From assembly GCF_024502345.1 (NCBI RefSeq), contig NZ_JALDNN010000001.1: a DNA stretch of 64,000 nt; one strand, written 5' to 3'. The stretch comes from Escherichia coli (GTDB lineage: Bacteria > Pseudomonadota > Gammaproteobacteria > Enterobacterales > Enterobacteriaceae). Position numbers: made by a program. This document shows, in pieces, positions 57,201-60,200 of this stretch (within the stretch, counting starts at the first letter, position 1; each line of letters begins with the position of its first letter).

Positions 57201-60200
57201 ATTCACGCCAAATTTTCCTTATTGAGCAACGTCGTCGCAAGTGGCCTCAATGATTTTAGACCATTATCAGAGATGCGGGGCGGTGGGGAGAGATTTAGTG
57301 ATGTGGAATATTGTGGTGCTGATGAATATTTATATCGCGGATTGGTAGAGAAAAAGGTTATTTCATGCACTATTTTTGCAAAGATTTCTATTTGGGAAGC
57401 GTGTTTGTTACGGGGTAATTCATCAGAATGTGCATTTGGGGTGTTGGCTGGAAGAGTCGCTGGTAGATGTTATTGTGGCAGGAGGGGCAGGGTAAGGTGC
57501 TGTATCGATATGCTTTGGCAATTGCGTGTGCCGCAGATGGAGATGAAATGCCAATAAAAAAGCCTGAGTTCGATGAGGGACGAACTCAGGCTAGTGTTAT
57601 GTTTTACAGTAACACGCCGCGGCGCGTTGGCTGATTAGAACTGGTAGACGATACCAACTGCAAACTGGTCATCAGCTGCTGCGCCAGTAATGGCGGCGTC
57701 ATCTTTATCCAGCATGTTGAATTTGTATGCAGTATAAACGTTCATGTTCTTATTAAAGTAGTACCAGGTACCAACTTCAATGTAGTTCACACGGTCAGCG
57801 TCAACATATCTATGTCCAGGTACCCCTTTGATATCTTTACCTTTAGAGTACACATAACCTAAGGACGGACGCAGACCAAAGTCGAATTGATACTGAACAA
57901 CCGCTTCAAAGTTCTGGGTTTCATTGATAAGTTGATCACGCATTATTGTATTGCCTTCTCGATCGGCAACACCTGTATCAATAGAACCCGGAGTCATATT
58001 ACGAGTTTCGCCGTACATTACAGCTGCGTAGACATTGTTCGCGTCATACTTTGCAGCCAATGACCACAGTTCAGCATTTGAACCGTTTCCATCGGCAACT
58101 TGATCGTTGGTGCGATCAGATTTGCTATATGCACCAACGATACCAAAACCATTGATGTTATAGTCTACAGACAACGCATAGCCGTCACCATTTTGTTTCT
58201 TAGTGCTACGGTTGCTGTTTTTGCCTTGGTACTGAATCGCAAAATCAAGACCATCAACCAGGCCAAAGAAATCATAGTTACGGTAGGTTGCAACACCGTT
58301 GGTACGACCATTCATGAAGTTGTCAGCGGAAGCCCAGGAATCGCCACCCCATTCAACTAACATATCGGTATAAGCTGCGGCATCATAAGCAACACCGTAG
58401 TTACGGCCATAGTCAAATGATCCTAACTCGTTATATTTCAAACCGGCGAAGGTTAAACGGGTTTTTTCCTGGTTTTCACCTTCGGGCTTGCTGGCGTCGA
58501 GATTGTATTCAAACTGACCAAAACCAGTCAGTTCGCTGGTGATTTGGGTTTCACCTTTAACACCGAAACGAGCATAGGAGGTATCTTCGTTTTCGCTGTT
58601 ATTATCATCAGTATTTGACCAGATGCGTTCGCCAACCATCTTGCCGTAGAAATCAACTTTATTGCCATCTTTATTGTAAATTTCAGCCGCATTTGCTGCG
58701 CCAGCAACTAATAACGCCGGGACCAGCATTGCCAGAACTTTTCTTTTCATTATGTATTCCCTTGTGATTATAATCTTCATGAATATATCAATAAGTGCCG
58801 TTATCCAAAAAAAAGCACATTTGGATACTATTCTATGAAGTTCATTTTATTTTAAAGATTACATGTAACAAATGTATTTAAAAGATTTCAAAATGTTTCT
58901 AATCTATTTAATATAATTTAGAATTATGAATTCTAAATATAAATATTCATGAAAATTATAAATGTATATCAATATGTTATGAGTTGAGCGGAAGCATAGG
59001 GGGTATCAATGATTGTTGCGCCAAACGGCTGGTGTGATCACGCGCACATTAATGAAGGCATAAAAAAAAGCCGGCATCATGCCGGCCCAAAAAATATAAA
59101 CAAGACGATAAAAGGCTAATAACGGAGGCATCATGACACAGAAAAATAAAAAGGTATAATTGTATTCAGTGCTAATATATTGATTAAATGAATTAATAAA
59201 GCCGATCTCAAAGATAAATAAAATCGCTCAAAACGATTTTTCCTGTATTCACTGCCGTTGCGCAAAAATTATCTATTTGTTCAAAAAATGAGTGAGTCTT
59301 GACTGGCTCATCCAATGTGGAAAAATGTGACTTTTATCACATAATAGTACTAAGTCTGAATTTTCCGGGTTATCTCAAAATGGAATACGGTTCGACAAAG
59401 ATGGAAGAGAGACTCTCTCGCAGCCCTGGTGGCAAACTGGCTTTGTGGGCTTTCTATACATGGTGTGGCTATTTCGTCTGGGCAATGGCGCGTTACATCT
59501 GGGTGATGAGCCGGATCCCCGATGCCCCCGTGTCGGGATTTGAAAGCGATTTAGGCTCTACCGCGGGAAAGTGGTTAGGGGCACTGGTCGGATTTTTATT
59601 TATGGCTCTGGTCGGGGCATTGTTAGGCAGCATTGCCTGGTACACCCGACCTCGTCCCGCACGTAGCAGACGCTATGAATAAAAACTGCTAAGGTGGCGA
59701 CTCTTTGGCAACGGAGCGCGTATGGACTTACAGCACTGGCAGGCACAGTTCGAAAACTGGTTGAAAAACCATCATCAGCACCAGGACGCGGCCCATGACG
59801 TGTGTCATTTTCGCCGCGTCTGGGCTACGGCACAGAAGCTGGCGGCAGATGACGATGTCGATATGCTGGTGATTTTAACCGCCTGTTATTTTCACGATAT
59901 TGTGAGCCTGGCGAAAAATCATCCGCAAAGGCAGCGTTCTTCAATCCTGGCGGCAGAAGAGACGCGTCGCCTGCTCCGTGAAGAGTTCGAGCAATTTCCG
60001 GCGGAGAAAATCGAGGCCGTTTGTCATGCCATTGCCGCTCACAGTTTCAGCGCGCAAATCGCCCCCTTAACAACGGAAGCTAAAATTGTCCAGGATGCGG
60101 ATCGGCTGGAAGCCCTGGGGGCGATTGGCCTGGCGCGCGTGTTTGCCGTTTCAGGGGCATTGGGCGTGGCGCTGTTTGATGGTGAAGATCCGTTCGCACA

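What the first reader, a model, noticed from the sequence alone, without database searches (positions are those of the whole stretch)
59062..59086. Orphan intrinsic-terminator-like hairpin in the yedS-yedR divergent intergenic region
gccggcatcatgccggc is a perfect palindrome preceded on the + strand by A8. In minus sense this is a hairpin followed by U8, a strong intrinsic terminator, yet no annotated minus-strand gene lies upstream of it. It may end a small RNA transcribed antisense to the yedR leader, or insulate the porin promoter from read-through.
Basis: seen in the sequence. Interest (0 to 1): 0.3.

Follow-up and report, generated by a model that had tools for sequence, protein, structure and literature searches.

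The report
Terminator of known sRNA RseX
The "orphan" hairpin is the ordinary transcription terminator at the end of RseX, a well-known 91-nt E. coli regulatory RNA that automatic annotation leaves out; nothing new is here.

Summary
A 7-bp G+C-rich inverted repeat (9 bp with two G·U pairs) and a 3-nt loop sit at 59068-59088, followed on the minus strand by U8 (59069-59062). It is the only hairpin of this strength in the 64 kb window; shuffles give 0.025 per window.

It is not orphan. It is the Rho-independent terminator and Hfq-binding 3' end of the known sRNA RseX, at window 59152..59062 on the minus strand. Rfam RF01401 matches full length at 96.7 bits (gathering score 50). The sequence is 89/91 identical to K-12 rseX (b4603), which sits between drpB (yedR) and yedS, and the annotated 3' end falls exactly on the finding's start coordinate.

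RefSeq's PGAP pipeline does not annotate rseX in the other RefSeq E. coli records I looked at (50 hit rows, two loci opened), which explains why it looked orphan. The element is in 4879 of 5426 complete E. coli genomes, other Escherichia species and one Citrobacter, with the terminator core invariant.

"Antisense to the yedR leader" is wrong: the published drpB promoter lies at 59317-59380, and RseX is transcribed away from it. Already known; low interest.

The parts
59062..59152 (-). rseX gene: 91-nt Hfq-binding small RNA RseX (5' end 59152, 3' end 59062)
   Evidence: Rfam RF01401 full-length match 59063..59152, 96.7 bits vs gathering 50, E 5.8e-14 (again). Aligns to K-12 rseX b4603 (2033649..2033739) with 2 substitutions, at nt 9 and nt 26.
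59068..59088 (-). Terminator hairpin: stem nt 65-73 / 77-85 (GGGCCGGCA / UGCCGGCUU), loop UGA at 59077-59079
   Evidence: Core CCGGCA-N3-TGCCGG invariant in 10 copies from 6 species or lineages; one compensatory G-C to A-U change at the stem base in Citrobacter. The loop of this terminator is reported as required for fepA repression (PMC11979758).
59062..59069 (-). U8 tract: terminator tail and 3' poly-U Hfq-binding end
   Evidence: At least 7 T in all 10 aligned copies. The Hfq role of the 3' poly-U follows from established knowledge of Hfq-dependent sRNAs, not from a test here.
59089..59103 (-). U-rich single-stranded linker (UUGUUUAUAUUUUUU, nt 50-64) just before the terminator hairpin
   Evidence: Unpaired in the MFE and centroid folds. 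Matches the 'U-rich sequence + hairpin + poly-U' layout of Hfq-binding modules (established knowledge; inference).
59109..59134 (-). Target-pairing region (nt 19-44) containing the conserved core GUUAUUAGCCUUUUAUC
   Evidence: Local duplexes: nt 19-40 with ompA -23..-4, -19.3 kcal/mol (0/60 shuffles as good); nt 24-43 with ompC -28..-9, -19.0 kcal/mol (1/60). The core is invariant or nearly so in alignment A2.
59115..59139 (-). 5' hairpin of RseX (nt 14-15/37-38 and 19-23/30-34)
   Evidence: Rfam consensus structure and MFE fold. Pairs kept in 95-98% of cells, but almost no variation to test them.
59159..59187 (-). Putative sigma-70 promoter of rseX: -35 TTAATC (59187..59182), 17-nt spacer, -10 TACAAT (59164..59159)
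   Evidence: My reading of the sequence relative to the annotated 5' end. Papers state that a sigma-70 consensus and a 5'-RACE-mapped start exist (Chen 2002 and Douchin 2006, as cited in PMC8313858). T-12, A-11 and T-7 are conserved in the Escherichia copies. The hexamer assignment is inferred.

Best explanation
The hairpin plus U8 is the Rho-independent terminator of rseX, the gene for the 91-nt trans-acting, Hfq-dependent small RNA RseX. Transcription starts at a sigma-70 promoter just right of 59152, runs leftward on the minus strand and stops in the U tract at about 59062. In the finished RNA the same hairpin and 3' poly-U, together with the U-rich stretch before it, form the Hfq-binding and stabilising 3' module. 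The upstream region (nt ~19-44) base-pairs with the ribosome-binding regions of ompA and ompC mRNAs and represses them. According to a 2024 study, the terminator loop itself is needed for Hfq- and RNase E-dependent repression of fepA. The gene lies in an AT-rich intergenic region silenced by H-NS (backed up by StpA), so the RNA is undetectable in wild-type laboratory cultures. Shown here: sequence identity, family membership, synteny, conservation, and complementarity to targets. Taken from the literature: transcript size, 5' end, Hfq dependence, targets, H-NS silencing, loop function. Inferred: the exact termination point in this strain and the promoter hexamers.
For: Rfam RF01401 full-length hit at 96.7 bits vs gathering 50. 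K-12 annotation has ncRNA rseX b4603 between drpB and yedS, co-oriented with yedS. The window copy is 89/91 identical to it, with terminator and U8 identical and the annotated 3' end at window 59062. It is the only hairpin of this strength in 64 kb, with 0.025 expected. The fold puts the hairpin at the 3' end at -14.6 kcal/mol. It is present in 4879/5426 complete E. coli genomes, once per genome. It is also in E. albertii, E. whittamii, two other Escherichia lineages and C. amalonaticus, all passing the Rfam gathering score (70.9-95.2 bits), and in the same yedJ-yedR-RseX-porin synteny in Citrobacter. The terminator core and at least 7 U are invariant, with one compensatory change. Complementarity to the ompA and ompC translation initiation regions beats shuffled controls. 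Literature: 91-nt RNA, sigma-70 promoter, 5' RACE, Rho-independent terminator, Hfq-dependent ompA/ompC repression, H-NS silencing and a ~91-nt northern band in a delta-hns strain (PMC8313858). The last 40 nt (RseX+52) suffice for fepA repression and terminator-loop mutations abolish it (PMC11979758). PMC7648144 independently describes the rseX-drpB locus.
Against: No expression data exist for this particular strain, and RseX is not detected in wild-type K-12 (PMC8313858), so actual use of the terminator under natural conditions is unproven. Covariation support for the stems is almost nil because the family is narrow and nearly invariant: one double-sided change, and 48/500 shuffles reach the observed score. 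The z-score of the whole-RNA fold is only -1.46. A ~75-nt 'RseX short' species is also seen and its ends are unmapped.
Confidence: 0.95

Rival explanations
1. The main role of the hairpin is as an insulator: it protects the promoter of the downstream porin gene yedS (same strand, ATG at 58750) from transcription coming from the right.
For: Geometry: the terminator lies ~310 bp upstream of the yedS start on the same strand. yedS is intact in this strain, and the synteny with a yedS-like porin is kept in Citrobacter.
Against: The only known transcription unit feeding into it is the 91-nt rseX itself, whose sequence, ends and targets are documented. Insulation is a by-product of any sRNA terminator. 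The terminator is equally conserved in K-12, where yedS is a pseudogene.
Confidence: 0.03
2. The hairpin ends a cis-antisense RNA that overlaps the yedR/drpB leader and regulates it.
For: The two genes are divergent neighbours. A + strand promoter-like site (59133..59160, 11/12 to consensus) overlaps the RseX 5' end.
Against: RseX spans 59152..59062 and runs away from drpB. [quoted passage not shown] 59317-59380 (PMC7648144). Even the 59133..59160 site would start transcription near 59167, to the right of RseX's 5' end, so the transcripts would not overlap. Multicopy rseX did not reproduce drpB phenotypes.
Confidence: 0.01
3. It is a decaying relic: rseX is a silent, dispensable gene, and the hairpin persists only because too little time has passed for it to erode.
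For: RseX is undetectable in wild-type cells. It is classed as a variable sRNA lost in several E. coli/Shigella lineages (PMC3318445). About 10% of complete E. coli genomes lack it, and strain P276M carries a copy with a deletion in the conserved core.
Against: The terminator core and pairing core are invariant from E. coli to E. albertii and Citrobacter, while the flanks and the first hairpin's loop diverge, and there is a compensatory change in the stem. The RNA is made when H-NS is removed and is active on several targets when expressed.
Confidence: 0.03
4. It is a copy of a repeated extragenic palindrome (REP/BIME-type), or part of a small protein-coding gene.
For: G+C-rich palindrome in an intergenic region. 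A 42-aa ORF (59134..59006, minus strand) overlaps it.
Against: Single copy in the window: the only other near-match has 3 mismatches. It occurs once per genome (median 1 place). The 42-aa ORF starts at RseX nt 19 and its stop codon (59006) lies 56 nt beyond the RNA's 3' end, so it cannot be translated to a stop from this transcript.
Confidence: 0.005

Closest known systems
RseX sRNA of E. coli K-12 (rseX, b4603; Rfam RF01401)
   Same: Same gene: same position between drpB (yedR) and yedS, same strand relative to yedS, same 91-nt length and ends, 89/91 identical, identical terminator hairpin, loop and U8.
   Different: Two substitutions in the 5' half: nt 9 is U instead of A, and nt 26 is C instead of U. 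The best predicted duplex with the ompA Shine-Dalgarno region is slightly stronger here (-19.3 vs -17.5 kcal/mol). The neighbouring yedS porin gene is intact here but a pseudogene in K-12.
Terminator/Hfq-binding 3' modules of other porin-controlling enterobacterial sRNAs (MicA, RybB, MicC, MicF, OmrA/B), and SdsR and ArrS for the terminator-loop effect
   Same: G+C-rich hairpin followed by a long U tract and preceded by a U-rich single strand. Trans-acting repression of outer-membrane protein mRNAs at the ribosome-binding site. For SdsR and ArrS, a terminator-loop-dependent effect on fepA (PMC11979758).
   Different: No sequence relationship: the weak sub-threshold Rfam hits to RyhB and Esr41 rest on the terminator alone. 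RseX has no sigma-E or OmpR control and is silenced by H-NS (PMC8313858).

Membership tests
RseX (Rfam RF01401) | Covariance-model score at or above the curated gathering score, full-length match | tested here: met
   96.7 bits vs 50, model positions 1-94/94, window 59063..59152 minus strand.
RseX (Rfam RF01401) | Orthologous position: between drpB (yedR) and yedS, co-oriented with yedS | tested here: met
   K-12 annotation; 291-nt alignment at 99% column identity; same flanking genes in the window and in other E. coli and Citrobacter loci.
RseX (Rfam RF01401) | Region complementary to the translation initiation regions of ompA and ompC | tested here: met
   Local duplexes of -19.3 kcal/mol (ompA -23..-4; 0/60 shuffles as good) and -19.0 kcal/mol (ompC -28..-9; 1/60). 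This is a computational prediction against K-12 target sequences.
RseX (Rfam RF01401) | Hfq binding and Hfq-dependent repression of targets | not testable with these tools
   Reported for K-12 RseX (Douchin 2006 as cited in PMC8313858; PMC11979758). Only the sequence features of an Hfq module are visible here.
RseX (Rfam RF01401) | A ~91-nt primary transcript with a 3' end at the U tract | not testable with these tools
   A northern band of ~91 nt in K-12 delta-hns and a 5'-RACE start are reported. There are no data for this strain.
Intrinsic (Rho-independent) terminator | G+C-rich stem, short loop, immediately followed by a U-rich tract, downstream of a transcription unit on the same strand | tested here: met
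   9-bp stem (6 G-C pairs), 3-nt loop, U8; unique in the window, 0.025 expected; rseX lies immediately upstream.
Intrinsic (Rho-independent) terminator | Demonstrated termination of RNA polymerase at the site | not testable with these tools
   Needs Term-seq, 3' RACE or in vitro transcription.
   RseX occupies 59062-59152. The drpB TSS/promoter lies within 59317-59380 (PMC7648144; coordinates mapped). No + strand promoter-like site would start transcription left of 59152.
REP/BIME repeated extragenic palindromes | Many dispersed copies per genome | tested here: not met
   One copy in the window; median one place per E. coli genome.

The most novel reading that the evidence does not exclude
The near-consensus + strand sigma-70-like site (ATGACA-16-TATAAT, 59133..59160) shares DNA with the rseX promoter and the first 20 nt of RseX. 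It could be a real divergent promoter producing an unannotated + strand transcript towards drpB. It could then compete with the rseX promoter for RNA polymerase, adding to H-NS as a reason why RseX is silent. Nothing here excludes this, but its conservation cannot be separated from conservation of RseX itself, and the published drpB promoter lies elsewhere.
Probability: 0.08. Interest if true: 0.3.

Novelty: already known. Interest (0 to 1): 0.06.

Why it matters
For biology it changes little: RseX, its terminator, its targets and its silencing are all published. The practical point is about annotation. PGAP lists nothing under rseX in the RefSeq E. coli records examined (50 hit rows, two loci opened), although 4879 of 5426 genomes carry the sequence. 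A strong terminator with no gene in front of it will therefore keep being flagged as orphan. Screening such candidates against Rfam and the K-12 reference annotation first would remove them. The one live question attached to this hairpin is already in the literature: how the 3-nt terminator loop of RseX contributes to fepA repression without apparent base-pairing.

Tried and rejected
(1) Unrestricted RNAduplex of RseX nt 1-64 against whole 5' leaders gave sprawling hybrids no better than shuffles (fraction as good: 0.10 for ompA, 0.12 for ompC, 0.56 for yedS). I replaced it with 22-nt local windows.

(2) I tested whether RseX pairs with the translation initiation region of its intact neighbour, the porin yedS. 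The best duplex was -10.6 kcal/mol, and 73% of shuffled sRNAs did as well or better. There is no support for this idea.

(3) Covariation test of the two helices across 10 copies: the family is too invariant to be informative, with one compensatory pair and 48/500 shuffles reaching the observed score.

(4) I tried to read Douchin et al. 2006 (JBC) and Thomason et al. 2015 (dRNA-seq TSS tables). Neither is held. Facts from Douchin 2006 are therefore cited second-hand through PMC8313858 and PMC7648144.

(5) REP-type repeat and small-ORF readings were rejected.

(6) The sub-threshold Rfam hits to RyhB, Esr41, STnc430 and suhB/mmgR over the same bases (17.5-23.1 bits, all far below their gathering scores) rest mainly on the terminator hairpin; the printed RyhB and STnc430 alignments show this.

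Full report
**Observation.** On the minus strand this is GGGCCGGCA-UGA-UGCCGGCUU followed by U's: a 9-pair stem (7 Watson-Crick pairs plus 2 G·U), a 3-nt loop and a U8 tract. The consensus scan lists it as a terminator-like site at 59088..59068. To ask whether it exceeds chance, I scanned both strands of the whole window for perfect stems of at least 7 bp with at least 5 G/C pairs, loops of 3-8 nt, and at least 7 T in the following 8 bases. This is the only hit in 64 kb, and 40 dinucleotide-preserving shuffles gave a mean of 0.025 hits per window. On the + strand the hairpin is followed by CCAAAAAATA, so it can act as a terminator for the minus strand only.

**What it is.** A search of 58700-59450 against Rfam gave a full-length match to RF01401 (rseX, "Hfq binding RNA") on the minus strand at 59063..59152. 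It scored 96.7 bits against a gathering score of 50, E = 5.8e-14, and covered model positions 1-94 of 94, with the hairpin and U tract forming the 3' end of the model (reproduced on the whole window). The E. coli K-12 MG1655 reference record annotates the ncRNA rseX (b4603, 2033649..2033739) between drpB (formerly yedR) and the yedS pseudogene, in the same orientation as yedS. Aligning 291 nt of the window's minus strand to that K-12 region gives 99% column identity. Inside the 91-nt RNA there are two substitutions (nt 9 U vs A; nt 26 C vs U), and the terminator, its loop and the U8 are identical. The annotated K-12 5' and 3' ends map to window 59152 and 59062, so the finding's start coordinate is exactly the annotated 3' end of RseX. 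The window's gene order (hchA, yedS-like porin, [rseX], drpB, yedJ, dcm) is the K-12 order read from the other strand.

**Why it looked orphan.** The 601-bp intergenic region is found in 4908 of 5426 complete E. coli genomes, and the 161-nt rseX-plus-promoter stretch in 4879, essentially once per genome. The column "annotated features under the match" reads "none" for every listed record, 50 hit rows in all. The two PGAP-annotated loci I opened list drpB and a porin but no RNA gene between them. The terminator therefore has no annotated gene in most records, although the gene has been known since 2002-2006.

**Anatomy and mechanism.**
- The RNA folds into a small 5' hairpin (nt 14-38), a long U-rich single strand (nt 39-64) and the terminator hairpin (nt 65-85) followed by the U tail. 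The terminator alone is the centroid structure, at -14.6 kcal/mol.
- Upstream of 59152 on the minus strand I read TTAATC-17 nt-TACAAT (59187..59159), with the -10 hexamer at -12..-7. This assignment is my inference. The literature states that a sigma-70 consensus is present and that 5' RACE indicates a primary transcript (Chen 2002 and Douchin 2006, as cited in PMC8313858).
- With 22-nt local windows, RseX nt 19-40 pairs with ompA -23..-4 at -19.3 kcal/mol (0 of 60 shuffled sRNAs as good). RseX nt 24-43 pairs with ompC -28..-9 at -19.0 kcal/mol (1 of 60). For the K-12 allele, the best ompC duplex is a continuous 14-bp helix between GUUAUUAGCCUUUU and the ompC Shine-Dalgarno region. [quoted passage not shown]
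- The hairpin preceded by a U-rich stretch and followed by 3' poly-U is the usual Hfq-binding module of enterobacterial sRNAs. That rests on established knowledge and was not tested here.

**What the literature adds.**
- RseX is undetectable in wild-type K-12. A ~91-nt band, plus a ~75-nt species, appears in delta-hns cells, and RNA-seq shows strong derepression in hns/stpA mutants (PMC8313858).
- The window's intergenic region is strongly AT-rich, with GC falling to 0.205 at 58800-58999 and 0.30-0.37 across rseX. This is the kind of DNA H-NS binds.
- RseX also represses fimB and ihfB.
- Most relevant to this hairpin, Solchaga Flores et al. (NAR 2024, PMC11979758) showed that the last 40 nt of RseX (RseX+52, essentially the U-rich linker plus this terminator) repress fepA 23-fold. 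Mutating the terminator loop strongly impairs that repression without lowering RNA levels. The effect needs Hfq and RNase E and shows no sign of direct base-pairing. So the hairpin is a terminator, an Hfq and stability module, and reportedly a regulatory determinant in its own right. All three roles are already published.

**Conservation.**
- An exact-pattern scan of one genome per species found rseX in E. coli, E. albertii, E. whittamii, two unnamed Escherichia lineages and Citrobacter amalonaticus. All six pass the Rfam gathering score, at 70.9-95.2 bits.
- In Citrobacter the RNA sits in the same yedJ-yedR-RseX-porin arrangement.
- In a 10-sequence alignment, the core CCGGCA-N3-TGCCGG, a run of at least 7 T, and the pairing core are invariant or nearly so, whereas the promoter-distal flank and the loop of the first hairpin vary.
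- A formal pair count gives 97.4% of cells paired. There is only one double-sided change (G-C to A-U at the base of the terminator, in Citrobacter), and 48 of 500 shuffles reach the observed score. Covariation therefore neither adds to nor detracts from the structure; the family is simply narrow.
- RseX was previously classed as a variable sRNA lost in some E. coli and Shigella lineages (PMC3318445). That matches its absence from about 10% of genomes here.

"Ends a small RNA" is right. "Antisense to the yedR leader" is not. RseX is transcribed from 59152 leftward, away from drpB, whose ATG is at 59380. Yahashiri et al. (PMC7648144) located the drpB promoter and an RNA-seq-mapped TSS between the formerly annotated GTG-1 and ATG-22. 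In the window this is 59317-59380, where the scan also finds promoter-like sites at 59299..59326 and 59318..59345. The two transcripts are divergent and more than 165 nt apart. Multicopy rseX did not reproduce the drpB phenotypes in two independent studies. Insulation of the yedS promoter is a possible side effect of the terminator, but it is not required to explain it.

**Other rivals.** The palindrome is not a dispersed repeat: there is one copy in the window and one per genome. The overlapping 42-aa ORF (59134..59006) runs 56 nt past the RNA's 3' end, so it cannot be translated to a stop from this transcript. I also asked whether RseX might pair with the translation initiation region of its intact neighbour yedS. 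It does not: the best duplex is -10.6 kcal/mol, and 73% of shuffled sRNAs do as well or better.

**Verdict.** The feature is real and well above chance, but it is the already described terminator of an already described sRNA. Novelty: already known. Interest: low.

Noticed in passing
window 59133-59160 (+): Near-consensus sigma-70-like site ATGACA-16-TATAAT (11 of 12) on the + strand. It overlaps RseX nt 1-20 and the rseX -10 region and points towards drpB. The published drpB promoter is elsewhere (59317-59380). Conservation of this site cannot be separated from conservation of RseX itself.
   Followed up: partly
window 57635-58750 (-): The yedS-like porin gene is an intact ORF here (371 aa from MKRKVLAM..., SD AAGGGA upstream), whereas K-12 yedS is annotated as a pseudogene. 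Other E. coli records annotate it as 'porin' or 'porin OmpC'.
   Followed up: partly
RefSeq E. coli genomes: PGAP annotation lists nothing under rseX in any of the 50 listed records, although 4879 of 5426 complete genomes carry the sequence. This is a systematic annotation gap that will generate 'orphan terminator' calls.
   Followed up: yes
L008:1501-1654 (E. coli P276M): A degenerate rseX allele (88% identity). It has a substitution in the conserved UUAGCC core, a deletion of about 7 nt in the UUUUAUCGU stretch of the pairing region, and loss of the UGG before the hairpin. The terminator hairpin and U8 are intact. It may be a decaying copy.
   Followed up: no
L003:1944-2040 (Citrobacter amalonaticus S646): RseX homologue outside Escherichia (70.9 bits), in the same yedJ-yedR-RseX-porin synteny. 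The terminator has a compensatory G-C to A-U pair at its base and a UUU loop instead of UGA, making it a natural variant for the published terminator-loop effect on fepA.
   Followed up: partly
window 59127 and 59144 (RseX nt 26 and nt 9): This strain's RseX differs from K-12 at two positions. With C instead of U at nt 26, the best predicted duplex with the ompA Shine-Dalgarno region is stronger (-19.3 vs -17.5 kcal/mol for K-12, whose best duplex uses a different part of the RNA).
   Followed up: partly
window 57561-57592: A 12-bp hairpin between the 3' ends of yedS and hchA, followed by TTTTTTATTGG on the minus strand. It is probably the yedS terminator. The + strand side has no T run.
   Followed up: no
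window 58800-58999: GC content falls to 0.205 in the yedS-rseX spacer, against a window mean of 0.49. This is typical H-NS-bound DNA and fits the published silencing of rseX.
   Followed up: partly
window 8540-8663 (-), 10960-11034 (+), 26189/28598/30419/46124, 47188-47274: Other Rfam hits in the window: His operon leader, STnc240, four tRNA hits of identical length (73 nt) and score (72.6 bits), and one 87-nt tRNA.
   Followed up: no
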